DNA of 32,000 bases from Candidatus Saccharimonadota bacterium (GCA_017609205.1 JAFCEL010000001.1:360001-392000), one strand, 5' to 3'. Positions 10,944 to 23,039 are shown, counted from the stretch's first letter. The notes: a model not told the origin generated them from the letters alone. Numbers and translations are program-made.

Positions 10944-10944
10944 T

Positions 10945-11763
10945 TTATAGTATGTCTAAAGGGCTTTTTATATTTTCTATATCTGTGTTAGCAACATGGG
11001 TATAAACCTGAGTTGTTCTAAGATTTTTGTGCCCTAATAGTTTTTGTATTTTCCTTATATCCACTCCTTGCTCTAATAAATGGGTTGCGAAAGAATGCCT
11101 TAAAACATGGGGCCTTATTTTCCTTCCGAGAGCTTTTTTCGAGCTTTTTTCTAGGATTTTTTCTATACTTTTTGAAGAGTATTTTTTATTTCTGTTTGAT
11201 TCAAACAAGTGGTCTTTTGGAGTATATTGTAAAAGGTATTTAAGAAAATCGTTTTTAATTGATTCAGGGAAAAGGGTTATTCTGTCTTTTTTTCCTTTTC
11301 CTTGTCTAATATAAATTATCTTTCTTTCAATATCAATGTCCTTTGGTTTAAGGTTAGTTAACTCAGAGACTCTTAATCCTGCAGAATAAATTAGTTGCAC
11401 AATTAGCCTATGCTTCAAGTTTTTTATCTCTTTTATTATCTTGGAGATTTCTGTCTTGTTTAATATTTCGGGAATTTTTGATTCTGTTTTGTAATTTGGA
11501 AGTTTAAACTCACTTTGTTTTCCAATGATTTTAAATAATATTCTTAAGGCAGAATATTTTTGTTTTATGTAGCTTGTACTTTCTTTTTTCTCAATACTTT
11601 TTAATAAGTATTTCTTAACATCATCATTTGAGGGGTTATTAGAACTTTTTCTTATAAAATCTTCTATTATTCTTGAGTATGATTTTATAGTTTTCGAAGA
11701 CAAATTTCTTAATCTTAGGTAATTCTCATATTCTTGTTTAATCGAACTTATTTTTTTGTGCAT
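10945..11763 (-). CDS. xerA: Xer-type tyrosine recombinase (XerA-like), candidate integrase of the adjacent cassette array
   Basis: Catalytic series AGLRVSEL (R), GKGKKDR (K), HVLRHSFATH (H-x-x-R), LLGHKNLRTTQVYTHV (H, Y). Only 272 aa. The stop lies 1 nt from the srp54 start. The start faces the attI-like GTTAAAC box. Confidence 0.9.
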   Translation of the reverse strand: MHKKISSIKQEYENYLRLRNLSSKTIKSYSRIIEDFIRKSSNNPSNDDVKKYLLKSIEKKESTSYIKQKYSALRILFKIIGKQSEFKLPNYKTESKIPEILNKTEISKIIKEIKNLKHRLIVQLIYSAGLRVSELTNLKPKDIDIERKIIYIRQGKGKKDRITLFPESIKNDFLKYLLQYTPKDHLFESNRNKKYSSKSIEKILEKSSKKALGRKIRPHVLRHSFATHLLEQGVDIRKIQKLLGHKNLRTTQVYTHVANTDIENIKSPLDIL

Positions 11764-11799
11764 AATCTATTCCATAAAGAGGATTTTATATAATTTGTG

Positions 11800-11829
11800 A
11801 TAGAAGTTCGATTAAAAGGTGTTAAACGA
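11800..11829 (+). other. attI-like insertion point (G|TTAAACGA)
   Basis: GTTAAACGA at 11821-11829, 58 nt upstream of the recombinase start codon. It is the exact reverse complement of TCGTTTAAC (11983-11991) in the first attC-like site. Confidence 0.45.
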
Positions 11830-11984
11830 AATTTTTTGCCCCTATTTTTTTGGGTTTTCTTTTTTTTAGTCTGTCTTCGGCAGAATTGATTTGGGGCAAA
11901 AAACTCTGCGGAAAAATCAAAGATTTTTTCCTTGCCTCGCTGCGCTCTCACTCCACTTCGCTATCGCTTCGTTTCGTTCGGGTC

Positions 11985-12080
11985 GTTTAACAGCGATTAA
12001 GAGGTTCGCTTGTTGCACTTCGCTCTCCCAAATTTCTTCGGCTTCGCCTCAGAAACTTCTCTTAATCGCTCATGTTATCC
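11985..12080 (+). repeat. attC-like site 1
   Basis: R'' GTTTAAC; L'' CGATTAAGAG (11994-12003) is perfectly complementary to L' CTCTTAATCG (12059-12068); 5-nt spacer; G|TTATCC at 12074. Internal C(TTCG)G hairpins. Confidence 0.65.
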
Positions 12081-12104
12081 GAAATGCCGACGAAAACGCA
12101 AGCT

Positions 12105-12113
12105 TTTTAAATA
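12105..12113 (+). promoter_or_regulatory. TATA-box-like element of cassette 2
   Basis: TTTTAAATA ends 20 nt before ATG 12133. Confidence 0.45.
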
Positions 12114-12132
12114 ATCAAATTTTATTTAATTT

Positions 12133-12774
12133 ATGGTTAAAGAAAAATCAAAAAATCTTACGATTTTTATCGCGGTCGTTGTAATATTAGTTTTGGCCAC
12201 TGGTTTTTTAACATATTCTTATACATTAAATCAATTTTCATCCTCACAAGAAGAAACACTTAATTTTTTTAAAGAATATTCTATTGCATTAAATAATATT
12301 CATATCGCTTCTGGTTTTTTAGATATCGCATTATTGAATTTGAATGCAGGAAATTCGTATGTTGAGACTGGCGAATACTATTATGAATTTGCGATAGATT
12401 ATTATGATACTGGAAAAGAACAGGTTTTGGATGCTAAAGAATTACTTAATAAAGCTAAAACAAAATTACAAAACCTGCAAACTAATGCCCCAAATTCTTT
12501 TTTCCAAGAGGATGTCGAAAAGCGAATAGAACAAGCAGATTCTTTAATTTCTGTTAGTAATGATTTATATTCTCTTCTTGATTACCAGAAGCAACAACTT
12601 TACGAAATTAATTATGGTTCTGAATCAAAGGCAACAGAATATTATAATAAATATAATGCCCTTATCCCAGAATTTAATAATAAACTAAAAAAATTAAGTG
12701 AAATCCAAAACCAGATTGATTTAAATTGGGACCAAGATTGGTATCCTACTTTCCAAGAAACAGCGACCGCTTGA
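12133..12774 (+). CDS. Hypothetical membrane-anchored protein (N-terminal TM, helical ectodomain)
   Basis: AT-rich coding-like ORF with hydrophobic LTIFIAVVVILVLATGFL near the N-terminus. I recognise no family motif. Confidence 0.6.
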   Translation: MVKEKSKNLTIFIAVVVILVLATGFLTYSYTLNQFSSSQEETLNFFKEYSIALNNIHIASGFLDIALLNLNAGNSYVETGEYYYEFAIDYYDTGKEQVLDAKELLNKAKTKLQNLQTNAPNSFFQEDVEKRIEQADSLISVSNDLYSLLDYQKQQLYEINYGSESKATEYYNKYNALIPEFNNKLKKLSEIQNQIDLNWDQDWYPTFQETATA

Positions 12775-12859
12775 TTTTTCTTTTCGTCGGCACTCTGCGG
12801 ATTTTCTACGAAAATCCTTGCCCCATTGCATTCTCAAAATCCTTCGGATTTTTCGGGTC

Positions 12860-12954
12860 GGATAACAACGATTTAACGGAAAATCCCTTGCAGGAATTTT
12901 CCCAAATTTCTTCGGCTTCGCCTCAGAAACTTCTCTTAATCGCTCATGTTCGCC
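12860..12954 (+). repeat. attC-like site 2
   Basis: R'' GGATAAC is the reverse complement of the GTTATCC junction at 12074. The right half (12900-12950) is identical over 51 nt to site 1 (12026-12076). G|TTCGCC at 12948. Confidence 0.65.
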
Positions 12955-13080
12955 AAAATTTTCCCTTTGCCCTCCAGAGTCGGGTAAATCCTCACGCTGG
13001 TTTTGAGGTGCTTCCCTTAACGCTCCAATCCGAAATCGGAGGACATCGGATAATATCGCTGATTAAAGGAAATTTGAAAA

Positions 13081-13512
13081 ATGGATAAAGAAATAAAGTT
13101 TGAAGCATTTGACTTGAGAAAAGTAAGACCTCTCTTGTTGAAAATAGCAAAAGAGAAAGGTAAAACTTACGAAGAAGTTAAGAGAGTGTTTTACGAAAAG
13201 ATAGAAATTCCATACGCACCTCAAAGCGTATCGGACAAAGGAAAAACTCACGAGGGTGTTTTGAACACCACTCGTGCCGACTTCGTCGGTCGGCGAACAC
13301 CGAATAAACGGAAAAATGCTTTGGCTTCGCCAACCTGTTTTTTACAGGACGCATTTTTCTCAAATTCTTGCTCCGCAAGAACTTCGTTTATTCTATCCAT
13401 TAGTCGAAATTTAATTTGGTGCAAATTTGCCCGCCCCCTTAAGCGTGTGCTTAAACTCAATTATAATAATCTTTATATATATGAATCAATAACAGTCTTA
13501 TATGCCACTTAG
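13081..13512 (+). CDS. Small hypothetical protein; only the first ~55 codons look coding, the rest reads through attC-like site 3
   Basis: MDKEIKFEAFDLRKVRPLLLKIAKEKGKTYEEVKRVFYEKIEIPY is coding-like. From ~13245 the frame runs through the GC-rich repeat and across the 13399 junction without a stop. Confidence 0.35.
   Translation: MDKEIKFEAFDLRKVRPLLLKIAKEKGKTYEEVKRVFYEKIEIPYAPQSVSDKGKTHEGVLNTTRADFVGRRTPNKRKNALASPTCFLQDAFFSNSCSARTSFILSISRNLIWCKFARPLKRVLKLNYNNLYIYESITVLYAT
13292..13405 (+). repeat. attC-like site 3
   Basis: R'' GGCGAAC is the reverse complement of the GTTCGCC junction at 12948. L'' CGAATAAACG (13301-13310) pairs with L' CGTTTATTC (13385-13393). Inner stem GAAAAATGC/GCATTTTTC encloses two hairpins. 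Junction A|TTAGTC at 13399. Confidence 0.6.
13472..13479 (+). promoter_or_regulatory. TATA-box-like element of cassette 4
   Basis: TTTATATA ends 22 nt before ATG 13502. Confidence 0.45.
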
Positions 13513-13954
13513 ACAATATGCAGAATGGGTTGATGCACCCAGAACAAAAACTTATTTTCAAGAAGGTAGAGCAGGAATTTTAAGATTAGATGCTCATAAA
13601 GAGTTTTCTCCTGAGCATACATTAGATTTAGTTATTGCTAAAACAACTCTTTATGAAGATTGCAATATCTCCTCTAAACTCCTTCCTCTAGTTGTTGCAA
13701 TGTGGGAGAGGAAAGGAGATGAAAGACTTAATGACTTCTATTCTTTTGATAATAATGGCGTCTGCTTATCTCATGGTTATTCAAGAATGAAAAATGGTCA
13801 ACGAGTTGTAGATGAACAACACGATACAGATATAAGCAGACTTATTGAATATGGAGAAGTCATTAAAGATTTAATAGGAGATTATCCAATTCCTGCTCAA
13901 TTAGCAATGCACACGACAGTTATTGATTTAAGACAAAATACCTTAAGAGAATAA
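13502..13954 (+). CDS. Hypothetical protein
   Basis: 150-aa ORF that fills cassette 4 (13400-14177), with a TATA box at the standard distance. No motif recognised. Confidence 0.6.
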   Translation: MPLRQYAEWVDAPRTKTYFQEGRAGILRLDAHKEFSPEHTLDLVIAKTTLYEDCNISSKLLPLVVAMWERKGDERLNDFYSFDNNGVCLSHGYSRMKNGQRVVDEQHDTDISRLIEYGEVIKDLIGDYPIPAQLAMHTTVIDLRQNTLRE

Positions 13955-14058
13955 CGCACATGCTTTTTTCTTTTCCCACCCAATAAGCACCAAATTAAAC
14001 TCTTCGCCAGCCCTTCGGGACATTGCATTCTGGCTCGGTTTTTTCTACGAAAAAACTC

Positions 14059-14183
14059 TACTAACAGCGATTAAGACTCCACTCACTTGCAGTTCGCTAC
14101 GCCCTTCGGTTTTGTGGGTTGCCTCAAAACCTACGGGGAAATAAATCCTTCGGATTTACTTCTCTTAATCGCATATGTTGCTT
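14059..14183 (+). repeat. attC-like site 4
   Basis: R'' TACTAAC (5/7 complementary to the 13399 junction). L'' CGATTAAGAC pairs with L' CTCTTAATCG. Several C(TTCG)G / CTACG hairpins. G|TTGCTT at 14177. Confidence 0.55.
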
Positions 14184-14316
14184 GGCTTCGCCCAAATTTT
14201 TTCTTAATTATAACGGGCAGGGGCTTTTTAGTCCTTCGGACATATTTTTTATTCTAAAATAGAAATATTTAAATACTATTAAATTAATATTTTAATAATA
14301 TTCAGAAGATGATAAA

Positions 14317-14484
14317 ATGGTAAAAATTCAAAAAACAAATACGGGTCAATCAATAATAACCATCCCTCGAAGTATTATGAGGGCTACTGGCTGGGGAAGA
14401 GGGACCGAATTAATGCCTTATGTGGATGAAGAAGGAAAACTTATTCTGAAAGAGATAAAAATTAAAAAGAGGATGAGAAGATGA
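14317..14484 (+). CDS. AbrB/SpoVT/MazE-type swapped-hairpin DNA-binding protein (55 aa, below the ORF-track cut-off)
   Basis: Hand translation: MVKIQKTNTGQSIITIPRSIMRATGWGRGTELMPYVDEEGKLILKEIKIKKRMRR*. Its stop overlaps the dcm ATG (ATGA at 14481-14484). Confidence 0.6.
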   Translation: MVKIQKTNTGQSIITIPRSIMRATGWGRGTELMPYVDEEGKLILKEIKIKKRMRR

Positions 14485-15521
14485 ACAGTAAAAATCCAAT
14501 TGCAATAAGTTTATTCTCTGGCATGGGAGGACTTGACTTAGGACTAAAGAAAGCAGGCTATAAAATTGCTGTTCAACTTGATATAGATCACCATTGTATT
14601 GAAACGCTTAAAACCAATTGGCCAAGAGTCCCAAAAATACAAGAAGACATAGCATTTCTTACTGCAAGAAAGATTTTATCAAAAGCCAACCTTAGTAAAA
14701 GAAAAGTTGATCTTATCGCTGGAGGACCAAGTTGTCAACCATTCTCACGATCAAATGAAGGAAAACGAAAGGGGGTTAAAGATAGAAGAGGCAAACTTAT
14801 TTTTGAGTTTGCTAGGTTAGTAGACGAGATTCGACCCAAAGCATTTATTATGGAAAATGTTGCAGGACTGATATCTTCAAATAAAGGGAAAGATTTCAAG
14901 AAATTACTCAATTTTTATAATAAAATTAATTATCACATTCAATATCAAGTTCTAAATGCAGCTGAATATGGACTTCCACAGAAAAGAAAAAGATTATTTC
15001 TTGTCGGCTTTAGAAAGAAAACAAACTTTAATTTTCCAAATCCAACTCATGGCGAGGGAGATGGCTTAGCACCTTTCGTAACAAGCGGAGAAGTATTAAG
15101 AGATTTAGATGATGGTATAATCCATGATAGTACCGTTTCAATAGGTGGAAAACATGGTCATCTTATTAACGATATCCCCCCTGGAATGAATTATATTTAT
15201 TATACTGCAGAATATAACCCAAAAAATGCTATCTTTCGTAATAGATCAAAGTTCTGGACATTTTTATTAAAATTAGATCCTAAACAGCCCTCTACAACAA
15301 TCCAAGCAAGTCCTTGGAGTCATGTAGGTCCCTTCCACTGGAATAATAGACGACTAACTATTGCAGAAATTAAGCGGCTCCAAGGAATACCTGATAACTA
15401 CTTCGTATCGGGTGCCAGAGAAAAAGAATATACCTCACCAGCATGGAGACAGATAGGTGATGCTGTTCCTCCATTGCTTTCTTATGTTCTGGGGAAAGAA
15501 ATTAAAAAGATAATTTATTGA
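14481..15521 (+). CDS. dcm: DNA (cytosine-5)-methyltransferase
   Basis: Motif I FSGMGG, motif IV GGPSCQPFS, motif VI ENV, motif VIII QKRKRLF, motif X GDAVPP. Confidence 0.92.
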   Translation: MNSKNPIAISLFSGMGGLDLGLKKAGYKIAVQLDIDHHCIETLKTNWPRVPKIQEDIAFLTARKILSKANLSKRKVDLIAGGPSCQPFSRSNEGKRKGVKDRRGKLIFEFARLVDEIRPKAFIMENVAGLISSNKGKDFKKLLNFYNKINYHIQYQVLNAAEYGLPQKRKRLFLVGFRKKTNFNFPNPTHGEGDGLAPFVTSGEVLRDLDDGIIHDSTVSIGGKHGHLINDIPPGMNYIYYTAEYNPKNAIFRNRSKFWTFLLKLDPKQPSTTIQASPWSHVGPFHWNNRRLTIAEIKRLQGIPDNYFVSGAREKEYTSPAWRQIGDAVPPLLSYVLGKEIKKIIY

Positions 15522-17422
15522 TCACCATACTTATCCAAATATTCTTTAATTCTTTCATTTGCATTAGGAAATTTAACGGGCAGAGGGATATTCGTTAGTC
15601 CTGTAGCATCATAGCTAAACAGCATCCATTGTCCTTTTGTAAATGTTAGAGTTCTCTGTATCATCTCTTTAGATGCTCCGAAAGCTTTACCAATAGTGTC
15701 CCTATCATACTCTCTTGGTAATTTTGATAACAAGAAAGTATGAGGTTGAGCCAGTATAGACGTATCAAGATAGGCTACTCTTTGTGTTGCTAATGCAAGA
15801 CCTAGACCAAACTTTCTACCTCTTCTCGCAAGTAAAGTGCTCGCACTTCTTGATCGTTGGTAACTTTCGCCTCCTGATTGTGGTATGAATTCATCAGCTT
15901 CATCGTAAAGGAAGAGCACATGCGGATCAATTTCTCCACTTGTTCTTCTCCTTCTGAATGCATAGTTTACCATATGACTTGAAAAATCTCTCAAGTCATC
16001 GTCACGATTGCTCTGAACAATTATAAGTGCAGGTTTTGACTTATCGGTAAACGTTCGGTAGATTTGATCCATAGAAAGTATGGCCTTCTCAGGCAATGGT
16101 TCTTCTTTTGTTGCACTGAGATATCCTCGTACTACCTCTTGCATCCCGGAAAGTATTATTCTCCCTGTATCATTGAGTCTTACTGTCCGTTCAGTTGGTG
16201 CTCTGGGAGCAGTTCCCATTAAACTTTGCTGAACAGATTCTCCTCCTTCTTGTCTGGTATAGTCTACCAAGGCATTGTCTTGAAGTGCCTGGCCTATATC
16301 GGCATCTAATGCTTGAAGTTGTTGCTCAGAAACAGGATCAACACCTGAACCTCGCAGGTGTTCATCAATCATTCTACGAATATGAAACTCATTATTCCTT
16401 GAACCACTTTGTATTCTTTCACTGAGTTCACTCCTAAGATCACTAATTGTAGGGTTTGTAGAACCTGTACTGAATATTCTTATTTTATTTGCTTTCAGGA
16501 TTTCTTTGAAAAGTGGCAAATACTTGTCTTGATAAGGAATTAACTCTTTAGGTAGGAGGAGGGTTCTGACAATTGATTCAGCAGCTTCGTTTAACTTGGA
16601 TTCATCACCACGTATATAATCCTCTACTGCTTGTGAACCTGGCAAAGAGTCTTCTGTTACACATAAGATATATGCTTCATCAATCTTATGAATCAAATCA
16701 ATTAATAAGCCACTATACTCAGTCATAAGATCAAAGAGTACAACCTTATTTTCTTTAGCAACTGAAATAAGGTTACTTATAAGATTACTTAGCAGATTAG
16801 ATTTACCAGCTCCTGTGAAACCAAAGACTCCAAAGTGAGTTCTCAGTAAATCTTCTGTGCTTAGTTTGACACCAACTTTATCATTCAATATCAAAGTACA
16901 AGGTTCAATAGTCGGAACTTTTTCAGAGAGCAGCCCTTTATTAACAATTTGGTTTATTTGTTCATCTGTAAGTAAATGGGCGTCTTCACCTATCATAGGA
17001 AGACTCTCATCAACGTCAATAGATGCTTTATTATCTTGAGTAATAGTTAGTTGCAATCCTGTTGATATCGCTTCTGCCTTAATTTTAGTTGTTTGTTCAA
17101 TAGGTTCTTCTTGTTCCCAATCGACTTTAGCATTCTTTGCTGCTTCTATTACAAATCCTGGAAAGGCTCTTTCAGTGTCTCTTGATGAAACTCCGAGAGC
17201 ATAATGTTTAGGGAACACTGAAACAAGTTCAAGAATGCTGAAAGTGTTGTCCCCATTAACTCCACTATAATTTCTTACAGCGACAAAACTCCCTACTTTG
17301 ATTTCGCCGACAAACATTTTTGTATATGGAAACCATACAGCATAACTTAACTCCGCAGTACTTTCTGTGTCCATTGACACAACGACTCCTTTTGGACTAT
17401 CTTTAAAGTATTTCATTTTCAT
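15515..17422 (-). CDS. HerA/DUF87-like hexameric ATPase
   Basis: N-terminal barrel-like region (GEIKVGSFVAVRN), Walker A HFGVFGFTGAGKSNLL, Walker B VLFLYDEADEFIP. The 3' end overlaps the dcm 3' end by 7 nt. Confidence 0.7.
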   Translation of the reverse strand: MKMKYFKDSPKGVVVSMDTESTAELSYAVWFPYTKMFVGEIKVGSFVAVRNYSGVNGDNTFSILELVSVFPKHYALGVSSRDTERAFPGFVIEAAKNAKVDWEQEEPIEQTTKIKAEAISTGLQLTITQDNKASIDVDESLPMIGEDAHLLTDEQINQIVNKGLLSEKVPTIEPCTLILNDKVGVKLSTEDLLRTHFGVFGFTGAGKSNLLSNLISNLISVAKENKVVLFDLMTEYSGLLIDLIHKIDEAYILCVTEDSLPGSQAVEDYIRGDESKLNEAAESIVRTLLLPKELIPYQDKYLPLFKEILKANKIRIFSTGSTNPTISDLRSELSERIQSGSRNNEFHIRRMIDEHLRGSGVDPVSEQQLQALDADIGQALQDNALVDYTRQEGGESVQQSLMGTAPRAPTERTVRLNDTGRIILSGMQEVVRGYLSATKEEPLPEKAILSMDQIYRTFTDKSKPALIIVQSNRDDDLRDFSSHMVNYAFRRRRTSGEIDPHVLFLYDEADEFIPQSGGESYQRSRSASTLLARRGRKFGLGLALATQRVAYLDTSILAQPHTFLLSKLPREYDRDTIGKAFGASKEMIQRTLTFTKGQWMLFSYDATGLTNIPLPVKFPNANERIKEYLDKYGDQ

Positions 17423-17428
17423 ACCCTC

Positions 17429-19243
17429 CTATCGGAAACTATCACGTATTTCCCTGAATGTTTTTGACAACGGTCTTGATTTGAATGCCCATTCGCTTGA
17501 CTGTAATAAACCAATTACTCTTCTTTTAAGAGATTTTGCACCCCAGTCAGCTTGATGAAGTGGATCAGGGTATCCTAATGCTTCGGGGAAGTGATTACGA
17601 ACCAAAACAGCTAAAAGATACATTGTGAGTGTTTGCAGACGAGGTGTTCCAGTTGTTTCATCATATAGTAATGGTTGTATCTCACCGAACCAATCTGTCT
17701 TTATTTTAAAGTTTGCTGAATCCTTATCATCCCATCCAGGATATGCTAATCTATCTATAAAAAGTGCATGTGAAGAAATATTTCTATCTGGAGATAAGAA
17801 GAATTGAGCAAGTGATCTTAAAAATATACGTTCTGGCCTAGTGACTTCTCCTCTACTTGTATCGTAACCCTTACTTTTCCAAGTTTTAGATTTTTCATCA
17901 TATTCGCTGTGCATTGTCATAAAGCATGAATCAAAATCGTAGGTGCACCAAGGAGTATTAAGATTCAAATCTATATTTGGAAGAAGTTCGGCAATTGCTC
18001 TATCTGTAAGAGGTAATGAGAAATGTTTTATTTGATCGCCCCCTCTTACTTGATTTATTGAGCCTAAGAAGTTTCTATAAAAGAAGCGAGACATAGAATC
18101 TTTTACAATACCTATCAAAAGTATCTTTCTTTCCCAACATCTCTCGACCAAGGCTCTTAATCCAATGCCCGCGAGAAACATGATATCTCTAGGGGAAAAA
18201 TATTCTAATTCATCCGAATCACGTAACTTGTAACATACTCCGTGAGGGTCTTTCTTTTTGAATAAATTTTCGCAGATACTCTCAAATATTCTTTGTGACT
18301 TCTTCCACGAAGTCCTTGGGTCTACTGTGAACTCGAATGTTTCCGTTGAAGGATCATATTTCCCTGCTTTTTTGTCTTGTAAGAACTTTGCACCAGCCTT
18401 GAAATTTTCTAATGGGAATTTAGGGCAGTCTTTTGCAGAGATCTTCCTTCTCTGTTTCCATGTTGCTTCAGCAATTAATCTGAAGTGTGGCTGGAATTTT
18501 TTAGTTGATGGGATATCTAAAATTTCATTAAATGGATGTGCAAGAGAAACTTCCATGTCGGCTTCTGTTAAAAACTCACCTTGAAAATCTCCTCTACCTA
18601 GAGTTAGTGATGACGAACTGAAACTGGTATTTCCCATAACACCGCCTATACTGTTATCAATTAGAAGAACACGGGGGCATTCAACTGCGGAAGATTTTGC
18701 TAAATCATAAGCTAAATATATCTCTGCTAATTGCATTATTTTTGTGTGTAAAGATGAAACTTGAGCTATTTCAGAATCTGATCTAAATATTGGAGTTTCG
18801 TTTGCTTCGTCTTGTTCTGTAACGCCATGCATTACGTCTGGTGGGATTGGAACAAATGCAACCATTGATACATCTCTGTTGAGTTCCCATCTTTGGTATC
18901 TTATTTTTCCTCCTGGCTCTGAAAAGGAGATCGTTCCTTTAGAACCATAAGCTCCTCCGTAAAAAGAAATGAAGTTTGCCGATTCTTCTTTGTGACAACT
19001 TGCATCTATGGCTACAAAAGATATCTCGGACGTTTCAAAGAAATTCTCTGCCAAACGCTTAATTTCAAGTCTTTTAATTTGATCCTTGAAATCATCTGAG
19101 TATGATCTCACAAAGTGTTTAATTAATTCATCATACCTTTTCCTAAGTGATTTAGAGTGAAATTTAAGACGAGTCTCATACTCAGCTTGTGAACTTTCGA
19201 GACTTTTCCGGTATTGGTCATATACTTTTGAAATCTCTGACAT
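17429..19243 (-). CDS. NurA-like nuclease (large, 604 aa)
   Basis: Ordered motifs FVAIDAS, VLLIDNSIGG and LIGIVKDSMSR resemble the NurA series (xDGS, xDGSL, GxSKxS). It sits 6 nt upstream of the HerA-like gene. Confidence 0.5.
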   Translation of the reverse strand: MSEISKVYDQYRKSLESSQAEYETRLKFHSKSLRKRYDELIKHFVRSYSDDFKDQIKRLEIKRLAENFFETSEISFVAIDASCHKEESANFISFYGGAYGSKGTISFSEPGGKIRYQRWELNRDVSMVAFVPIPPDVMHGVTEQDEANETPIFRSDSEIAQVSSLHTKIMQLAEIYLAYDLAKSSAVECPRVLLIDNSIGGVMGNTSFSSSSLTLGRGDFQGEFLTEADMEVSLAHPFNEILDIPSTKKFQPHFRLIAEATWKQRRKISAKDCPKFPLENFKAGAKFLQDKKAGKYDPSTETFEFTVDPRTSWKKSQRIFESICENLFKKKDPHGVCYKLRDSDELEYFSPRDIMFLAGIGLRALVERCWERKILLIGIVKDSMSRFFYRNFLGSINQVRGGDQIKHFSLPLTDRAIAELLPNIDLNLNTPWCTYDFDSCFMTMHSEYDEKSKTWKSKGYDTSRGEVTRPERIFLRSLAQFFLSPDRNISSHALFIDRLAYPGWDDKDSANFKIKTDWFGEIQPLLYDETTGTPRLQTLTMYLLAVLVRNHFPEALGYPDPLHQADWGAKSLKRRVIGLLQSSEWAFKSRPLSKTFREIRDSFR

Positions 19244-19412
19244 CTTTAACCTCGCCCTCGGTTTTTATCTGATTTTTATTTAATTCCTCAACCATAAAAT
19301 TTTCAAACTGCTTTGACAGAATAATGCCTTTTTGCTCGCAGTATTTCCTGTATTCTTCGTAAACTTTTTCTTCCACACTAAGCGAAACAGTCTTTTTTGC
19401 CATATTCATCAA
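19218..19412 (-). CDS. Ribbon-helix-helix (CopG/Arc-like) small DNA-binding protein
   Basis: KKTVSLSVEEKVYEEYRKYCEQKGIILSKQFENFMVEEL has a beta-strand plus two-helix pattern. First gene of the RHH-NurA-HerA operon, overlapping the NurA-like start. Confidence 0.5.
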   Translation of the reverse strand: MMNMAKKTVSLSVEEKVYEEYRKYCEQKGIILSKQFENFMVEELNKNQIKTEGEVKDVRDFKSI

Positions 19413-19604
19413 CCCATTTATGTATATATAAGCTTAAATGTAATTCTTTATAAATTTAACGACTTTGTTCCTTAAATTTCTCACCCACACTTTGCTCCCG
19501 CCAGTTCTTTTTCAGAAAAAGAACCAAAAACAAAAGCCCCTGCCCTGTCCTTCGGACATATTGCCTGCCTTCGGCAGTAATTTATATCAATTAAGAAAAA
19601 ACTA

Positions 19605-19668
19605 CGGCAACAAAAAATTTTCGGCGCCCTCGCGACTTTGATTTTTTCGGCTTCGCCGAACGTTGCAC
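19605..19668 (+). repeat. Possible short attC-like site (weak)
   Basis: CGGCAAC ... TTCGGCG / CGCCGAA ... G|TTGCAC. GCAAC/GTTGC would pair, and it partly matches the TTGCTT cassette start at 14178. Confidence 0.3.
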
Positions 19669-19699
19669 TAAAAATCAATCCTTCCCTTCGGTCAGGAGA

Positions 19700-19826
19700 A
19701 ACTAACAGCGATTTAACGGTTCCGCTCCGTTGCACTCGCTCACCCATATTTTTTCCTACGGAAAAAACACTCGAGGTCACTTCGTTCCACTCGAGCCCTT
19801 CGGGTCGCTTAATGCGGATGTTAAGT
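19700..19826 (+). repeat. attC-like site 5
   Basis: R'' AACTAAC, AG spacer, CGATTTAACGG. Internal hairpins TTTTTTCC-TAC-GGAAAAAA and CTCGAG..CTCGAG. G|TTAAGT at 19820. The L arms are poorly complementary (mosaic). Confidence 0.5.
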
Positions 19827-20534
19827 TCAATTTGCCCCAGAGTCCTTAGGAAGTTGCGGTAATGCTTTAACATATCGTGATACAACATCACAAAAAGAAT
19901 TCTCATCACTTGAAGAATTAATACGATGGAAATGAATTTTAGGATCTTGAGTTATGCCAAAAACTTCATATTTTCTTTCTCCCGTGGGAGGAAAACCAAA
20001 AACTTGTAAAGGAATTCCTCTATATTTGGAATAAGCAAAACTTAGTGGACATTCATACCCTGATTGAACTAAAAGATCCTTAATTGGTTTCGCTGATACT
20101 GGAACTCTGTAGGGAATTATGTTGATATTCTCCCAAGCATGTGCAATATCTTTTCCTAATTCACCTGAAGTATTATGATTCAAATCGAATTCCAATAAGT
20201 ATACTAAATCTCTATTCACAGGATCAAGTTCCCGTGGAGATATTTTTCTTACACTATGATTTGGACCTTCTGATAAAAAATCAGGCACATGATAATCAGG
20301 AACTGCAATGATCCCATATCTTCCAGCAACATCTCCAGTAGTTTGAGGAAACTCTATTGCAATAATTCCTTCTTTTAATGGAATTTGACCAAAAAATGGA
20401 ACACTAACCATTGTTTGTATTATTGAAGTAGGAGTCATCAATTTATCCATAATCATCTTATCTGAATATGCAAAAAAATATCTTTGGTATTTTGGACCGC
20501 TTCTTTTGGTTCTACTTTTCTTCTTCTTTGGCAT
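19827..20534 (-). CDS. Hypothetical protein (start moved to MPKKKK)
   Basis: The first 25 codons of the track ORF lie in the repeat. ATG 20534 has a TATA box 20 nt upstream. No family recognised. Confidence 0.5.
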   Translation of the reverse strand: MPKKKKSRTKRSGPKYQRYFFAYSDKMIMDKLMTPTSIIQTMVSVPFFGQIPLKEGIIAIEFPQTTGDVAGRYGIIAVPDYHVPDFLSEGPNHSVRKISPRELDPVNRDLVYLLEFDLNHNTSGELGKDIAHAWENINIIPYRVPVSAKPIKDLLVQSGYECPLSFAYSKYRGIPLQVFGFPPTGERKYEVFGITQDPKIHFHRINSSSDENSFCDVVSRYVKALPQLPKDSGAN

Positions 20535-20554
20535 AAATGATGGGAATTCTACAA

Positions 20555-20564
20555 TATTTAAAAA
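20555..20564 (-). promoter_or_regulatory. TATA-box-like element for the reversed ORF
   Basis: The minus strand reads TTTTTAAATA, 20 nt before ATG 20534. Confidence 0.4.
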
Positions 20565-20625
20565 TGTACGGACTCTGGGGCAAACTCTGCGGACGCAGTT
20601 TTCCCACACTGCGTATGGGAAAAGA

Positions 20626-20745
20626 ACTTAACAGGGCTTAAAGGGTTCGAAACGACCGGCTTCGCCTATTTTGCCAAGCAAAATTCGTTTCTCTCCCAAA
20701 TTTTTTGTCTGCGACAAAAAACTTCCCTTAAGCCCGATGTTAAGT
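20626..20745 (+). repeat. attC-like site 6
   Basis: R'' ACTTAAC is the reverse complement of the GTTAAGT junction at 19820. L'' GGGCTTAAAGGG pairs with L' CCCTTAAGCCC (one bulged base). G|TTAAGT at 20739. Confidence 0.6.
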
Positions 20746-20805
20746 TCAATTGAGTTCTCGCTTAATATTAAGAAACGGGAAGGGGGCTTAGTCCCTGCGG
20801 GACAG

Positions 20806-20935
20806 ATAGTTTCGGCTTCGCCTCGCAGAAAAATTTCTCTTAACCGACCAACAAAAAAAGAAAACCAAATTTTCTTTCAGAAAATTCTGTCTAACATTGG
20901 TTAAGAAGTTCGCTTTCGCTCTCCCAAATTTTTCT
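20806..20935 (+). repeat. Degenerate right-half plus left-half attC-like modules
   Basis: TTTCGGCTTCGCCTC..CTCTTAACCGA (right-half-like, no GTT), then an A-rich 45 nt, then GTCTAAC-AT-TGGTTAAGAAG-TTCGCTTTCGCTCTCCCAAATTT (left-half-like). Homologous to 23040-23140. Confidence 0.4.
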
Positions 20936-20964
20936 AAGAGTTTGAGGCTGAAAAAAAGAAGTAT

Positions 20965-20973
20965 TTTTAAATA
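20965..20973 (+). promoter_or_regulatory. TATA-box-like element
   Basis: TTTTAAATA ends 22 nt before ATG 20996. Confidence 0.45.
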
Positions 20974-20995
20974 TTAGAACATATTTATATTTATT

Positions 20996-21907
20996 ATGGC
21001 GTTGTTCAAAATAAATAATTCAAAAGTTGAAAAGTTATCAATTACTGCAATTAGTAAAGAAAAAGACATTCAAAAATTATTTGAAGATAATTTATTGACT
21101 ATTCTTAATGTTGATTTCTTAGCTAGTGAATATAGTACAAGCTTTGGAGGAAGAATAGATACGCTTGGAATTGATAAAAATGGTTCTCCTGTTATTATTG
21201 AATATAAAAGAAACCAAAACGATAATGTAATCAACCAAGGATTATCATATCTAAGATGGCTTTTAGACCATAAAGCTGATTTTGAAATTTTATGTAGAAA
21301 TAGAAACATTAACATTGAGATTGATTGGAGTTCTCCAAGAGTTATATGCGTTGCAGAAAGCTATAATAAATTTGATTTAGATACAGTAGAAATCTTGCCA
21401 ATTAAAATTGAACTTTTGAAATATAGAATATATGAGAATAATATTTTATTGGTTGATTCAGAAACTCAAAGAGCTGTTAGAATTAGTACCTCTAAAATAT
21501 ATCAAAAAGGAAAGAAAGATAAAGAAACAATAAGATTACAAAAAGAATACACAATAGATATGCACCTAAAAATTGCCTCAAAACAAATAAAAGAATTATT
21601 TATGCGTTTAAAAGAAATGATTTCAGGTCTTGACGAGGCAATTATTGAAGAAGCAAAAGCAAAGTATATCGCTTATAAACTAACTACCAATTTTGTAGAT
21701 ATTGTAATCCAAAAGAATTCCATAAAAGCTTTCTTGAATGTTCCAAGTGGCAAATTAAATGACCCTTACGGCATTGCAAGGGACTTAACAAAACCAAAAC
21801 CTATCGGACATTGGGGTAACGGGGATTATGAAGTTATTGTAAAAAATGAAGATGAATTAAATAAATTATTTGAACTGATTAAACAATCTTATAATTATAA
21901 TAAATAA
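20996..21907 (+). CDS. PD-(D/E)xK nuclease-fold protein (DUF91/NucS-like N-terminus, DUF5655-like C-terminus)
   Basis: EKDIQKLFEDNL...GGRIDTLGIDKNGSPVIIEYKRN..VINQGLSYL gives a D...ExK layout. The C-terminal KYIAYK...FLNV region resembles DUF5655 as I recall it. Confidence 0.5.
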   Translation: MALFKINNSKVEKLSITAISKEKDIQKLFEDNLLTILNVDFLASEYSTSFGGRIDTLGIDKNGSPVIIEYKRNQNDNVINQGLSYLRWLLDHKADFEILCRNRNINIEIDWSSPRVICVAESYNKFDLDTVEILPIKIELLKYRIYENNILLVDSETQRAVRISTSKIYQKGKKDKETIRLQKEYTIDMHLKIASKQIKELFMRLKEMISGLDEAIIEEAKAKYIAYKLTTNFVDIVIQKNSIKAFLNVPSGKLNDPYGIARDLTKPKPIGHWGNGDYEVIVKNEDELNKLFELIKQSYNYNK

Positions 21908-21916
21908 GGTGTAAAG

Positions 21917-22678
21917 ATGTGTCGCCTCATAAAAAAATCATTGTTGCCTCTTGTTCTAATTATTTTCTTAATATCTTTTATAGTATTGTCTTTTAACTAT
22001 TCTACATTTCTAAATAAGAGTACTACATTTTTAAATAAGAATAATGGTGTTTTAATGATTATTTTTACAGGAGTTGTAGCTTTTGCAACAGTAGTTTATG
22101 CTCTTTTGACTTGGAAGTTGGTTAATGAAACAAAAGAGATGAGAAAAGCCCAAACAGAGCCAAATATATCCGTAACTATTGAACCCAGAGAAGAGTGGAT
22201 AAACTTTATTGATATGAAAATAATAAATATTGGCTCTGGTCCTGCTTATGATATTAAATTCAAAGTTGAACCTGATTTTGAATATTTTAAAGATAAGTTT
22301 TTATCTAAAATAAAAATAATGCAGGGAATAAAATATTTAGCACCAAATCAAAAAATACAATTTTTCTTAACAAGTTTAACTGAAAATTTTGAAGAGAAAA
22401 TTAAAAAACCATTTAAAATAAATGTAGCATATAAAAATAAAGTAGGAGATATATTTAGAGAAACTTTCATCATAGATTTCTCGCAATTTGAAGGAATGTC
22501 TCAATTAGGTGAGCCACCATTGTATAAAATTGCTAAAAGTTTAGATTCATTACAAAAAGATGTGGGACACTTATCTTCTGGATTTCACAGGCTTAAAACA
22601 ATTGTTTATACAAAAAAAGATATTGATCAAGAACATAAAAACTTAATGAAAAAGATAAATAAAAAAACAAAAAAATAA
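21917..22678 (+). CDS. Hypothetical two-TM membrane protein
   Basis: Two hydrophobic segments (LLPLVLIIFLISFIVL, VLMIIFTGVVAFATVVYALL). Starts 9 nt after the nuclease gene. Confidence 0.55.
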   Translation: MCRLIKKSLLPLVLIIFLISFIVLSFNYSTFLNKSTTFLNKNNGVLMIIFTGVVAFATVVYALLTWKLVNETKEMRKAQTEPNISVTIEPREEWINFIDMKIINIGSGPAYDIKFKVEPDFEYFKDKFLSKIKIMQGIKYLAPNQKIQFFLTSLTENFEEKIKKPFKINVAYKNKVGDIFRETFIIDFSQFEGMSQLGEPPLYKIAKSLDSLQKDVGHLSSGFHRLKTIVYTKKDIDQEHKNLMKKINKKTKK

Positions 22679-22842
22679 CAGCCCCCAACTCTAATTTTTA
22701 AAAGATACAACGGCACTCTCTCTTATTAATATATTTTCTGACGGCTTCCCGCCGTCCCAGAGTTCGTTTTAACTTCTCCGTTCGCTACGCTCACTCCGAC
22801 CACGCCTTGCAGGCTCTCACTCCATTTCATTCCGTTCGGGAC

Positions 22843-22929
22843 GCCTAACAGCCGTTAAAAGAGAAATTCCTGCGAAATTTCTCCAAATTTTTCCCTTCGG
22901 GAAAAACTTCTTTTAACGGCATATTAGTT
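22843..22929 (+). repeat. attC-like site 7
   Basis: R'' GCCTAAC (the classical inverse-core sequence). L'' GCCGTTAAAAG is perfectly complementary to L' CTTTTAACGGC. TTTCCC-TTCG-GGAAA hairpin. Junction A|TTAGTT at 22923. Confidence 0.55.
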
Positions 22930-23039
22930 TCAATTGCAAATTCTCTAAATTGTTGAGTTGAAAAATAGGAGAGGACACTTTAAAACCCCCGACCACCCGC
23001 CCCTAAATTGAGAGGGGTTGCTTATTAAAAAGAAAAATC

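What the first reader, a model, noticed from the sequence alone, without database searches (positions are those of the whole stretch)
14317..19412. Candidate defence cassette: AbrB-Dcm module convergent with an RHH / NurA-like / HerA-like operon
Plus-strand module:
- A 55-aa AbrB-type gene is translationally coupled (ATGA overlap) to a complete C5 cytosine methyltransferase.

Minus-strand operon, whose 3' end overlaps the dcm 3' end by 7 nt:
- A ribbon-helix-helix protein.
- A 604-aa protein with NurA-like motifs (VAIDAS, LLIDNS, LIGIVKDSMSR).
- A 635-aa HerA/DUF87-type ATPase (GFTGAGKSN, LFLYDEADEF).

Context:
- Canonical archaeal herA-nurA sits with mre11-rad50 for end resection. Here there is no mre11/rad50.
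- The pair is linked to a methyltransferase and two small regulators.
- The whole unit is one mobile cassette bracketed by inverted repeats.

That architecture resembles a restriction-modification-like system in which a HerA translocase and NurA nuclease form the effector, with methylation marking self. HerA-type ATPases paired with other effectors are known in anti-phage systems. I do not know of a described Dcm + NurA-HerA + AbrB/RHH module.
Basis: partly seen in the sequence, partly recalled or inferred. Interest (0 to 1): 0.8.

Follow-up and report, generated by a model that had tools for sequence, protein, structure and literature searches.

The report
NurA-HerA restriction-modification-like cassette
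A DNA methyltransferase gene sits next to a nuclease-motor pair (NurA-HerA) normally known for DNA repair, and this trio recurs across archaea while sister systems carry a 7-deazaguanine DNA-modifying enzyme instead, so it looks like an undescribed restriction-modification-type immune system, here carried as a mobile gene cassette.

Summary
All five ORFs, their overlaps and the quoted motifs are real. The 604-aa protein is a divergent NurA. Its AlphaFold model (pLDDT 86) matches only NurA structures at the top, and close homologues pass Pfam NurA. The 635-aa protein is a HerA-clade ATPase, and the methyltransferase is complete and resembles M.HaeIII.

In 80 non-redundant related loci from archaea and bacteria, NurA-like then HerA-like is a fixed pair.
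- 12 loci have an adjacent C5 methyltransferase. All are archaeal, and 11 of them form the clade that holds the window.
- 47 loci instead have a DpdA-type transglycosylase and/or a YaaA/DpdC-like DUF6884 protein.
- 21 loci show neither, roughly half on short or cut contigs.
- mre11 and rad50 never recur.

A constant nuclease-motor pair with interchangeable DNA-modification partners, patchy taxonomy and defence-rich surroundings points to a restriction-modification-like system, not a repair operon. No function was tested.

AbrB and RHH are lineage-specific additions, probably establishment regulators. The "bracketing inverted repeat" is a shared element upstream of both operons. The true cassette borders are attC-like hairpin sites in an integron-like array beside a XerA-type recombinase.

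I found no published description. Verdict: new variant of a known kind; interest 0.7.

The parts
10945..11763 (-). XerA-type tyrosine recombinase, divergent from the cassette array (context: candidate integrase of the integron-like array)
   Evidence: Pfam Phage_integrase 1.2e-40. NCBIfam NF040815 'site-specific tyrosine recombinase/integron integrase' 234.5 bits, above its 220 cut-off. TIGR02249 integron integrase 179.5 bits, below its 265 cut-off.
14061..14183 (+). attC-like hairpin site, left border of the cassette (CTAAC-AGCGATTAAGA ... TCTTAATCGC-ATA-TGTTGC)
   Evidence: Alignment of five copies with invariant TAACA...ATGTT. Single-strand fold pairs the two ends with a 3-nt bulge, z = -4.9 (top strand) and -6.8 (bottom strand). 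Strict scan finds 4 sites on the + strand against 0.24 expected.
14189..14226 (.). Shared upstream element, left copy (TTTTTTCTTAATT-n5-GGGCAGGGGCTTTT), about 100 nt upstream of the AbrB start
   Evidence: Alignment with the reverse complement of 19515-19665: blocks of 13/13 and 14/14 identical bases; inverted-repeat pair I5.
14317..14484 (+). 55-aa AbrB/MazE (SpoVT-AbrB) fold DNA-binding protein, translationally coupled to dcm; probable controller of methyltransferase expression
   Evidence: PF04014 5.2e-05; TIGR01439 0.005; ATGA overlap. Homologues found only in L001/L002.
14481..15521 (+). Complete C5 cytosine DNA methyltransferase (modification component)
   Evidence: PF00145 2.4e-67 over profile 4-324/324. 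PADLOC MTase_II 2.5e-84. Best solved relative is M.HaeIII over the full length, 8.2e-36. Motifs FSGMGG, PSCQ, ENV, QKRKR and GDAVPP are in the translation.
15515..17422 (-). 635-aa HerA-clade (FtsK-HerA superfamily) ATPase, predicted DNA translocase of the effector
   Evidence: DUF87 1.2e-13. PADLOC PDLC01055 HerA 2.4e-68 and mad8 1.3e-14. NCBIfam HerA models 5e-18 to 6e-17, far below equivalog cut-offs. PDB HerA chains 1.9e-13 to 2.1e-07. Walker A GFTGAGKSN and Walker B LFLYDEADE. Directly follows the NurA-like gene in all 80 related loci that carry both genes.
17429..19243 (-). 604-aa divergent NurA nuclease with a ~170-aa family-specific insertion (about residues 200-350); predicted nuclease of the effector
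   Evidence: No direct HMM hit. 35 of 46 homologues hit PF09376, and 8 tested pass its gathering score. AF2 model pLDDT 85.9, pTM 0.88. The ten best Foldseek PDB hits are all NurA, E 3.5e-10 to 1.3e-06. Family-invariant D80, E174, D196, K381-D382, H563, D566.
19218..19412 (-). 64-aa putative ribbon-helix-helix protein overlapping the NurA start by 26 nt; probable controller of the nuclease operon
   Evidence: Weak hits only: DUF6364 0.0066, CcdA 0.062. The strand-helix-helix pattern is read from the sequence. Homologues essentially only in L001/L002 (2e-38); one marginal, non-adjacent hit in L036 (1e-04).
19523..19610 (.). Shared upstream element, right copy (same two blocks, 44 nt apart), about 115 nt upstream of the RHH start
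19701..19826 (+). attC-like site, right border of the cassette (ACTAAC-AGCGATTTAACGG ... GCTTAATGCGGAT-GTTAAGT)
   Evidence: The MFE fold does not pair the two ends of this copy, so it is assigned by sequence homology to the other copies. It lies inside the spurious ORF 19481-19909.

Best explanation
The locus is a compact restriction-modification-like defence system carried as one gene cassette.

Shown:
- It encodes a complete C5 cytosine methyltransferase.
- It encodes a NurA-fold protein whose metal-binding acidic residues are invariant across the family.
- It encodes a HerA-clade ATPase with intact Walker motifs.
- The NurA-like and HerA-like genes are a fixed adjacent pair in 80 non-redundant loci from distant archaea and bacteria.
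- That pair is linked either to a Dcm (the archaeal clade that includes this window) or to DpdA plus a YaaA/DpdC-like DUF6884 protein (most other clades).

Inferred mechanism:
- Dcm marks host DNA with 5-methylcytosine at short sites.
- A NurA dimer docked on a HerA hexamer, as in the solved HerA-NurA complexes, loads on DNA ends or nicks and translocates with ATP.
- The complex degrades DNA that lacks the mark, and the mark halts or excludes it.
- Because the modification chemistry is interchangeable, the effector probably senses modified bases as the DNA passes through it, rather than cleaving at a specific sequence. The family-specific ~170-aa insertion in NurA is the best candidate reader.

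In this lineage only, dcm has been inverted and given its own small AbrB-type regulator, and the nuclease operon has an RHH-type regulator. Both operons carry the same upstream element. I read this as controller-protein-like timing, so that methylation is set up before restriction when the cassette enters a new cell.

The cassette is bounded by attC-like hairpin sites in an integron-like array next to a XerA-type recombinase, which would make the whole system mobile.
For: - NurA fold: AF2 pLDDT 85.9; the ten best Foldseek PDB hits are all NurA, including the T. kodakarensis HerA-NurA complex 9x1m at 3.5e-10; Pfam NurA above gathering in 8 homologues.
- Catalytic-type residues are invariant.
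- HerA identity.
- NurA-then-HerA adjacency in every locus that carries both genes.
- Dcm adjacent in 12 of 80 loci, all archaeal, spanning Woesearchaeota, Methanocalculus, Bathyarchaeia, Hodarchaeales, Nitrosopumilaceae and Lokiarchaeia.
- Dcm identity tracks NurA and HerA identity, so the three genes are inherited together.
- DpdA and/or DUF6884 is linked in 47 of 80 loci. Four tested DUF6884-TGT fusions pass the NCBIfam DpdA equivalog cut-off, 333-360 bits against 200.
- Partner type follows the NurA tree.
- Four Dcm-type loci add an HhH-GPD glycosylase, as expected next to an active 5mC methyltransferase.
- No Mre11- or Rad50-sized family recurs among neighbours.
- The family is small and patchy: 381 clusters in 1.84 billion representatives. 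It is absent from viral, phage and plasmid collections.
- Neighbouring cassettes encode defence candidates: PDC-S18 at 4.7e-98 and an SNase-like nuclease.
- Archaeal integron cassettes are reported to be enriched in R-M and TA genes (PMC9668308).
Against: - No experiment or methylome supports restriction or methylation.
- 21 of 80 loci show no linked modification gene. About ten of these have at least 3 kb of flank on both sides, mostly Armatimonadota. The pair may therefore work without a linked modifier.
- No recognisable modified-base reader domain was found. Beyond NurA, the whole-model Foldseek search gave only weak RNase H-like hits.
- The insertion diverges only a little more between partner types than the core does: ratio 0.69-0.73 against 0.88-0.89.
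- Canonical HerA-NurA needs DNA ends, so a circular host genome is protected without any mark. That leaves the role of methylation unexplained.
- Palindrome avoidance in the window is general, not specific to GGCC.
- The RHH assignment is weak.
Confidence: 0.6

Rival explanations
1. Selfish addiction module. The same R-M-like biochemistry exists, but its selected role is post-segregational killing. Loss of the cassette dilutes methylation, NurA-HerA then attacks the host chromosome, and this stabilises the cassette and the integron-like array, as toxin-antitoxin cassettes do.
For: The unit is a cassette in an attC-like array. TA and R-M cassettes are the commonest annotated functions in archaeal integrons (PMC9668308). 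The regulators are of antitoxin-type folds, AbrB/MazE and RHH/CcdA-like.
Against: Most relatives are chromosomal with no array evident. The trio is maintained across phyla in varied contexts. This reading is not exclusive of defence; classical R-M systems do both.
Confidence: 0.12
2. Modification-associated DNA repair. NurA-HerA processes breaks, nicks or abasic sites that the linked modification enzymes create (base exchange by DpdA, deamination mismatches after Dcm). It has no role in discriminating foreign DNA.
For: The canonical role of HerA-NurA is end resection (PMC12977600, listed). HhH-GPD glycosylases sit in four Dcm-type loci. DUF6884/YaaA relatives are linked to DNA-lesion binding (PMC11701544). 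UvrD plus a PD-(D/E)XK nuclease follow the pair in Latescibacteria.
Against: Ordinary Dcm enzymes need no dedicated end-resection machine. The patchy, horizontally transferred distribution and the cassette or defence-island settings are atypical of repair genes. mre11 and rad50 are never linked.
Confidence: 0.12
3. NurA-HerA is an accessory of the modification step. HerA supplies the ATPase that opens or scans DNA for the modifying enzyme, as DpdB does for DpdA, and NurA is a structural or nicking partner. The locus would then be a modification-only module.
For: DpdA-type loci here lack a DpdB homologue among the recurrent neighbours, and DpdA needs an ATPase in the Salmonella system (PMC12839542 text).
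Against: C5 methyltransferases act alone, yet the pair is retained in the Dcm clade. The nuclease-type residues of NurA are invariant family-wide. About ten loci keep the pair with no modifier nearby.
Confidence: 0.08
4. Ordinary archaeal herA-nurA double-strand-break repair operon that merely happens to lie beside an orphan methyltransferase.
For: NurA fold and HerA family membership.
Against: The window protein misses Pfam NurA and NCBIfam entirely, and HerA scores sit far below the repair-HerA equivalog cut-offs (64.8 against 970 bits). No mre11/rad50 in 80 loci. The family is present in many bacterial phyla. Linkage to Dcm or DpdA is recurrent, in 59 of 80 loci.
Confidence: 0.03

Closest known systems
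Canonical archaeal HerA-NurA end-resection complex (with Mre11-Rad50); solved structures 2ygk, 3tal, 4d2i, 9x1l-9x1n
   Same: Same two folds in the same operonic pairing. The NurA model's best structural matches are these proteins. HerA matches them by sequence.
   Different: There is no mre11/rad50 linkage. NurA is about 200 aa longer, with a ~170-aa insertion, and is too divergent for Pfam or PDB profile searches to detect directly. The family is spread patchily over bacteria and archaea and is linked to DNA-modification genes.
Dpd 7-deazaguanine restriction-modification system (dpdA-K)
   Same: Sister clades of this family carry a bona fide DpdA (NCBIfam equivalog passed) and a YaaA-fold protein analogous to DpdC. 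The logic is the same: base modification plus an ATP-driven nuclease machine.
   Different: The DpdD-K restriction genes are replaced by NurA-HerA. No DpdB is present. The window itself has Dcm, not DpdA.
DndFGH and the 'HerA/FtsK capture systems' / BREX-related capture systems of Aravind and co-workers (PMC10853773, PMC12839542)
   Same: A HerA/FtsK-type motor is recruited into modification-linked anti-invader systems. Some BRC systems also carry TGT. PADLOC gives weak DndH hits for the ATPase.
   Different: Those papers never mention NurA (0 occurrences). Their effectors are REase, HKD or PglZ domains, and their systems have many more components.
Sir2-HerA and DUF4297-HerA anti-phage systems
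   Same: Two-gene logic of a HerA hexamer plus an effector. Their HerA chains are the best PDB sequence matches, 1.9e-13 to 1.4e-10.
   Different: The effector here is NurA, not Sir2 or DUF4297. Those systems are not linked to a DNA modification enzyme. The NCBIfam anti-phage HerA equivalog cut-offs are not reached (61-63 bits against 800-850).
Type III CRISPR-associated HerA/NurA accessory pair (clusters 57 and 58 of Shah et al., PMC6546367)
   Same: The window's HerA best matches the PADLOC model built from that cluster, PDLC01055 at 2.4e-68. This is a second defence context for a HerA-NurA pair.
   Different: No cas genes appear in the window or in the neighbourhoods inspected. The window's NurA-like protein hits no PADLOC model.
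Archaeal integron gene cassettes (Ghaly et al. 2022, PMC9668308)
   Same: An array of same-orientation hairpin sites with RYYYAAC...GTTRRRY-type ends lies next to a divergent tyrosine recombinase. The cassette content is rich in R-M and defence genes.
   Different: The recombinase is XerA-type and scores below the integron-integrase threshold. The sites were not scored with the IntegronFinder attC model. At 5.6 kb and five genes, the cassette is unusually large.
MADS (methylation-associated defence system)
   Same: A methyltransferase-linked multi-gene defence system containing a HerA/FtsK-like ATPase. The PADLOC mad8 model hits the window's ATPase at 1.3e-14.
   Different: None of the other mad components is found. 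My knowledge of MADS composition comes from memory, not from a paper read here.

Membership tests
NurA nuclease family (PF09376) | RNase H-like NurA fold | tested here: met
   AF2 model pLDDT 85.9, pTM 0.88. Foldseek PDB ranks 1-10 are all NurA, E 3.5e-10 to 1.3e-06, TM 0.64 to S. solfataricus NurA.
NurA nuclease family (PF09376) | Sequence match to the Pfam NurA model above its gathering score | tested here: inconclusive
   The window protein has no hit. 35 of 46 aligned homologues hit at E <= 1, and 8 of 8 tested pass 21 bits with 24-32.5 bits. A profile of the family finds no PDB NurA by sequence.
NurA nuclease family (PF09376) | Conserved acidic/His metal-binding residues | tested here: met
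   D80 (strand 73-87), E174 (helix 165-183), D196 (end of strand 192-195), K381-D382, H563 and D566 are invariant in at least 97% of the 75 aligned family members. Equivalence to the P. furiosus catalytic residues is inferred, not superposed.
Canonical archaeal DSB-repair operon (herA-mre11-rad50-nurA) | Linkage of herA/nurA to mre11 and rad50 | tested here: not met
   No such genes in the window. No recurrent Mre11- or Rad50-like neighbour family in 80 loci or in the Pfam-annotated neighbourhoods.
HerA clade of the FtsK-HerA ATPases | DUF87/HerA central domain with Walker A and B | tested here: met
   PF01935 52.1 bits against a 23.2 cut-off; GFTGAGKSN and LFLYDEADE; PDB HerA chains to 1.9e-13.
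HerA clade of the FtsK-HerA ATPases | Equivalog-level identity to repair HerA or to anti-phage HerA (NCBIfam) | tested here: not met
   NF040819 64.8 bits against 970; NF042944 63.5 against 850; NF042943 61.4 against 800. It is a separate subfamily.
HerA clade of the FtsK-HerA ATPases | HAS-barrel N-domain, hexameric ring, docking of a NurA dimer | not tested
   No structure of the ATPase or of the complex was predicted.
C5 cytosine DNA methyltransferase (Type II-like) | Full set of conserved motifs and full-length match to PF00145 | tested here: met
   228 bits over profile 4-324/324; motifs I, IV (PSCQ), VI (ENV), VIII and X seen; M.HaeIII full-length match 8.2e-36.
Restriction-modification-type system | Nuclease and modification enzyme genetically linked, and the linkage conserved across taxa | tested here: met
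   12 Dcm-linked and 47 DpdA/DUF6884-linked loci among 80; co-divergence of Dcm with NurA and HerA; partner type follows the NurA tree.
Restriction-modification-type system | Nuclease attacks unmodified DNA and is blocked by the cognate modification | not testable with these tools
   Needs biochemistry or genetics.
Dpd system | DpdA transglycosylase present | tested here: not met
   None in the window. It is met in sister loci (L042, L056, L070, L078: 333-360 bits against 200), so the window is a Dcm-substituted relative, not a Dpd system.
Sir2-HerA / DUF4297-HerA | Sir2 or DUF4297 effector next to HerA | tested here: not met
   The neighbour is NurA-like. No PADLOC hit other than HerA-type, mad8, QatA and DndH models for the ATPase.
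Integron | Array of attC sites (imperfect hairpins with RYYYAAC / GTTRRRY ends), all in one orientation | tested here: met
   At least 8 sites between 11986 and 31445, all on the + strand. End-to-end hairpins form in three of the five copies folded (a1, a3, a5), z -2.9 to -6.8. Strict scan gives 4 against 0.24 expected. The sites were not scored with the IntegronFinder covariance model.
Integron | IntI-type integrase with the IntI-specific additional domain | tested here: inconclusive
   TIGR02249 gives 179.5 bits against a 265 cut-off, in two stretches. The best model is archaeal XerA (NF040815, 234.5 against 220), which NCBI names 'tyrosine recombinase/integron integrase'. At 272 aa, the protein probably lacks the extra domain.

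The most novel reading that the evidence does not exclude
This is one member of an undescribed family of two- to four-gene immune systems. In them a NurA-HerA end-processing machine has been turned into a processive, sequence-independent restriction engine. Its progress is gated by base modifications of two unrelated chemistries: 5-methylcytosine from Dcm in an archaeal clade, and 7-deazaguanine from DpdA/DpdC-like enzymes elsewhere. The modification would act like a dense 'self' signal, analogous to Chi sites for RecBCD, rather than as protection of a cleavage site. In DPANN archaea the system travels as a self-regulated integron cassette.
Probability: 0.3. Interest if true: 0.85.

Novelty: new variant of a known kind. 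Interest (0 to 1): 0.7.

Why it matters
It would add a new effector class, NurA-HerA, to restriction-modification-like immunity. It would give the long-puzzling non-repair NurA/HerA paralogues in bacteria and archaea a function. It also offers a minimal three- or four-gene relative of the eleven-gene Dpd system that should be easy to reconstitute.

The same nuclease-motor pair is found with two chemically different DNA marks. That makes it a natural experiment on how a translocating nuclease reads base modifications.

The integron-like setting would be an example of a complete, self-regulated immune system moving as a single cassette in DPANN archaea, organisms with tiny genomes and few known defences.

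Tried and rejected
- Direct HMM scans of the 604-aa protein against Pfam, PADLOC and NCBIfam gave nothing. A family profile against PDB sequences also gave nothing. Only homologue-level Pfam scans and fold comparison revealed NurA.
- tblastn of the NurA-like protein against plasmid and phage collections, and a pattern scan of IMG/VR, found no relatives. A viral or plasmid origin was dropped.
- I asked whether the M.HaeIII-like methyltransferase leaves a GGCC avoidance signal. GGCC observed/expected is 0.49, but CCGG, CGCG and GATC are as low or lower, so this is uninformative.
- I looked for sites that distinguish Dcm-type from DpdA-type NurA proteins. Only one position (G201/S) separates them, and the insertion is only mildly more divergent. 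No reader motif emerged.
- I looked for AbrB and RHH homologues beside other family members and found none outside the same population. Small ORFs upstream in L004 and L005 have no Pfam hit.
- I compared L001 and L002 with the window for presence or absence of whole cassettes. Only small indels differ, although both contigs stop at an attC-like site.
- Ten literature searches found no description of NurA-HerA linked to Dcm or DpdA. Iyer et al. 2004 could not be opened.
- The ORFs 19481-19909 and 13081-13512 were rejected as probably spurious, because they run through repeat elements.

Full report
**1. The observation**

- A 55-aa AbrB/MazE-fold gene lies at 14317-14484(+). PF04014 scores 5.2e-05, just under its cut-off.
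- Its stop overlaps the start of a complete C5 methyltransferase at 14481-15521(+) in an ATGA. The methyltransferase scores PF00145 2.4e-67 over the full profile, and all catalytic motifs are visible.
- On the other strand, a 64-aa weakly RHH-like gene at 19218-19412 (DUF6364 0.007, CcdA 0.06) overlaps the start of a 604-aa gene (17429-19243) by 26 nt.
- Six nucleotides after that gene comes a 635-aa ATPase gene (15515-17422). Its stop overlaps the dcm stop by 7 nt.

**2. Identity of the two large proteins**

The ATPase is a HerA-clade member of the FtsK-HerA superfamily.
- DUF87 scores 52 bits against a 23-bit cut-off.
- PADLOC HerA model PDLC01055 scores 2.4e-68. That model derives from the type III CRISPR-associated HerA cluster of Shah et al..
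- By sequence it matches solved HerA chains from the Sir2-HerA, DUF4297-HerA, T. kodakarensis and Sulfolobus complexes, at 1.9e-13 to 2.1e-07.
- It falls far short of the NCBIfam equivalog thresholds for repair HerA and for anti-phage HerA, so it is its own subfamily.

The 604-aa protein hits nothing directly in Pfam, PADLOC or NCBIfam. A family profile finds no PDB sequence either. It is nevertheless a NurA.
- Its family was found by one homology search (303 proteins).
- 35 of 46 aligned homologues touch PF09376. Eight that were tested individually pass the gathering score.
- An AlphaFold2 model built on the alignment is confident: pLDDT 85.9, pTM 0.88.
- The ten best Foldseek matches in the PDB are all NurA, E 3.5e-10 to 1.3e-06. 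They include the NurA chain of the new HerA-NurA-DNA cryo-EM complex.
- Pfam profile positions 3-168 stretch over about 340 residues of the protein. The family therefore carries an insertion of about 170 aa, roughly residues 200-350, inside the nuclease domain.
- D80, E174, D196, K381-D382, H563 and D566 are invariant in the family. The first four sit on the strands and helix where an RNase H-like nuclease keeps its metal ligands. The nuclease is probably active.

**3. Is the gene set a unit elsewhere?**

I collected neighbourhoods two ways.
- Exact-protein look-ups with precomputed Pfam annotation.
- A scan of one genome per GTDB species, which returned 80 loci.

After removing duplicates, and dropping four loci that held only NurA fragments, 80 loci carry the pair. 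In all of them the HerA-like gene directly follows the NurA-like gene on the same strand.

I clustered the flanking ORFs and iterated HMMs for the two recurrent neighbour families. The result:
- 12 loci have a C5 methyltransferase within about 1 kb.
- 47 have a TGT-family transglycosylase and/or a DUF6884 protein, as separate genes or fused. 43 of these are directly adjacent; 4 lie 3-7 kb away.
- 21 have neither. About half of those are on short contigs or have the pair at a contig end. About ten have good flanks, mostly one Armatimonadota clade.

The TGT proteins are DpdA. Four fused examples score 333-360 bits against the NCBIfam DpdA equivalog cut-off of 200. DUF6884 is a distant relative of YaaA/DUF328, the family to which DpdC belongs (text of PMC12839542).

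No neighbour family resembling Mre11 or Rad50 recurs. The other recurrent neighbours are:
- UvrD plus a PD-(D/E)XK nuclease in Latescibacteria;
- DEAD/SWIM or RecQ helicases;
- an Eco57I-type N6 methyltransferase in Nitrosopumilaceae;
- HhH-GPD glycosylases in four Dcm-type loci.

**4. Evolutionary pattern**
- In a neighbour-joining tree of the NurA-like proteins, 11 Dcm-linked sequences (ten loci plus the window) form one contiguous, entirely archaeal clade. It spans Woesearchaeota, Methanocalculus, Methanobacteriota, Bathyarchaeia, Hodarchaeales and Nitrosopumilaceae.
- A Lokiarchaeial locus acquired a Dcm independently, and L074 carries only a NurA fragment and so was left out of the tree. 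The rest of the tree is DpdA-linked.
- Within the Dcm clade, methyltransferase identity to the window falls in step with NurA and HerA identity. Examples for Dcm/HerA/NurA: 66/63/74% in L003, 44/42/48% in L005, 28/34/40% in L022. The exception is L010, where the methyltransferase has been replaced.
- The family is rare: 381 clusters at 50% identity among 1.84 billion representatives.
- It is taxonomically patchy.
- It is absent from the phage, plasmid and IMG/VR collections.

**5. Interpretation**

The pattern has four parts:
- a constant nuclease-motor pair;
- interchangeable DNA-modification partners of two unrelated chemistries;
- horizontal spread;
- defence-rich neighbourhoods. L006 has TnpB, SNase and further methyltransferases. 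The window has a PDC-S18 candidate and an SNase-like protein in adjacent cassettes.

This is the signature of a restriction-modification-like system, not a housekeeping repair operon.

What is shown is the folds, the conserved catalytic-type residues and the conserved linkage. The mechanism is inferred.
- A NurA dimer on a HerA hexamer, as in the solved complexes, threads DNA from ends or nicks and degrades it.
- 5mC here, or 7-deazaguanine in sister systems, stops or excludes the machine.
- The NurA insertion is the best candidate sensor.

Weak points:
- The clade has members without a linked modifier.
- No recognisable reader domain was found.
- An end-dependent nuclease does not obviously need a self mark in a cell with a circular chromosome.

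Rivals, scored separately, are an addiction role, modification-associated repair, and a helper role in modification. The ordinary repair-operon reading is essentially excluded.

**6. What is special to this window**
- In close relatives (L003, L004, L011, L074), dcm follows herA on the same strand. Here it is inverted, convergent, and preceded by the AbrB-type gene. The nuclease operon is preceded by the RHH-type gene.
- Neither small gene has homologues beside other family members.
- The "bracketing inverted repeat" is real. TTTTTTCTTAATT and GGGCAGGGGCTTTT occur at 14189-14226 and, as the reverse complement, at 19523-19610.
- Because the two operons converge, the repeat has the same orientation and a similar distance (about 100-120 nt) relative to each first gene. 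I read it as a shared operator or promoter element for co-regulation, comparable to controller-protein circuits of classical R-M systems. I do not read it as transposon ends. This is inference.

**7. Context: an integron-like array**

The intergenic regions from 11.9 to 31.4 kb contain at least eight copies of an 85-130-nt element, all on the + strand.
- The ends are TAAC-AGCGATTAAG ... CTTAATCGC-nnn-GTT.
- The ends pair into a hairpin with a small bulge in three of the five copies folded (z -2.9 to -6.8), and conform to the attC R''/R' consensus to varying degrees.
- A strict ungapped scan finds four on the + strand against 0.24 expected.
- The array starts 220 nt from a divergently oriented tyrosine recombinase at 10945-11763. 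That protein passes the archaeal XerA model, which NCBI names "tyrosine recombinase/integron integrase", but not the integron-integrase subfamily model.

The five-gene unit occupies exactly one inter-site interval, 14184-19826. Two contigs of the same population from other samples both end at window position 20742, inside the R' end of the next site.

Integrons with R-M-rich cassettes are already documented in Archaea, including DPANN (PMC9668308). I put about 0.7 on this.

**8. Novelty**

Ten full-text searches found no paper that links NurA-HerA to Dcm or DpdA.
- The closest literature describes HerA/FtsK "capture" systems and a BREX-related system with TGT, but never mentions NurA.
- It also covers Sir2-HerA and DUF4297-HerA, and the type III CRISPR-associated HerA/NurA pair.

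The library lacks most subscription journals, so prior description cannot be excluded. I rate the finding a new variant of a known kind (R-M-like defence), with interest 0.7.

Noticed in passing
window 11764-31445: An integron-like array. At least 8 attC-like hairpin repeats lie on the + strand, at about 11986-12080, 12863-12955, 14061-14183, 19701-19826, 20626-20746, 22844-22935, 30768-30885 and 31359-31445. The array starts 220 nt from a divergent XerA-type recombinase that lacks an IntI-level score. Many sites are followed by a conserved TTCAATTG and preceded by a conserved ...TTCGTTCGGG(A/T)CG... stretch, so the repeat unit is longer than a minimal attC.
   Followed up: partly
window 20996-21907 (+) and 21917-22678 (+): A neighbouring cassette encodes a NucS-like/DUF5655 protein that matches the PADLOC phage-defence candidate PDC-S18 (4.7e-98). 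It is followed by a 253-aa, probably membrane, protein with no family hit.
   Followed up: no
window 23161-24330 (-): A 389-aa protein with a staphylococcal-nuclease (thermonuclease) domain (NucI model 8.6e-21), inside the array. It is another possible defence or nuclease cassette.
   Followed up: no
window 24502-24720 (+), 25300-26415 (+), 27972-29953 (+): A 72-aa Cys-rich peptide (SACKSCQCNCRLCLGG) lies upstream of a radical SAM/SPASM maturase and an ABC permease plus ATPase pair. This looks like a small RiPP (sacti- or ranthipeptide-type) cluster within the same region.
   Followed up: no
window 11137-11178 and 13212/13213, compared with L001 and L002: There is population heterogeneity. L001 lacks about 41 nt inside the recombinase gene (called as 195 aa there, 272 aa here) and has 70 extra nt at 13212/13213. 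Both L001 and L002 end at window position 20742, inside an attC-like site.
   Followed up: partly
window intergenic regions, e.g. 14231-14241, 19549-19559, 11872-11882, 22894-22903: Very frequent short GC stems closed by a CTTCGG (UUCG-type) loop are scattered through the intergenic and repeat sequences. Examples are GTCCTTCGGAC and GCCTTCGGC. Their role is unknown; they could be terminators or part of the repeat family.
   Followed up: no
window 198-3377 (+) and 3421-4635 (+): Two large ORFs (1059 aa and 404 aa) have no Pfam hit at all. They lie upstream of housekeeping genes (aIF2-alpha-like, a DHH phosphoesterase, SRP54).
   Followed up: no
L042, L050-L052, L057, L059 (Latescibacteria), positions about 8290-17300: An extended architecture: DUF6884-DpdA fusion, NurA-like, HerA-like, UvrD-family helicase, PD-(D/E)XK nuclease. 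This suggests an AddAB-like back-up or accessory module in the DpdA-type systems.
   Followed up: partly
L016, L022, L030 (Nitrosopumilaceae / Cenarchaeum): Dcm, NurA-like and HerA-like are followed by an Eco57I-type N6-adenine methyltransferase. These systems therefore carry two different methyltransferases.
   Followed up: partly
L020, L028, L029, L031, L032, L034, L039, L054 (Armatimonadota and relatives): One clade of the NurA-HerA pair has no linked modification gene and sits in conserved housekeeping synteny (mutS upstream, an HpcH-type aldolase downstream). It may be a domesticated or modifier-independent version.
   Followed up: partly
L018, L058, L085, L086: The NurA-like gene is split into several ORFs (frameshifts or pseudogenes) in some genomes. 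In L018 a Dcm fragment is still adjacent. This is consistent with the decay typical of defence genes.
   Followed up: no
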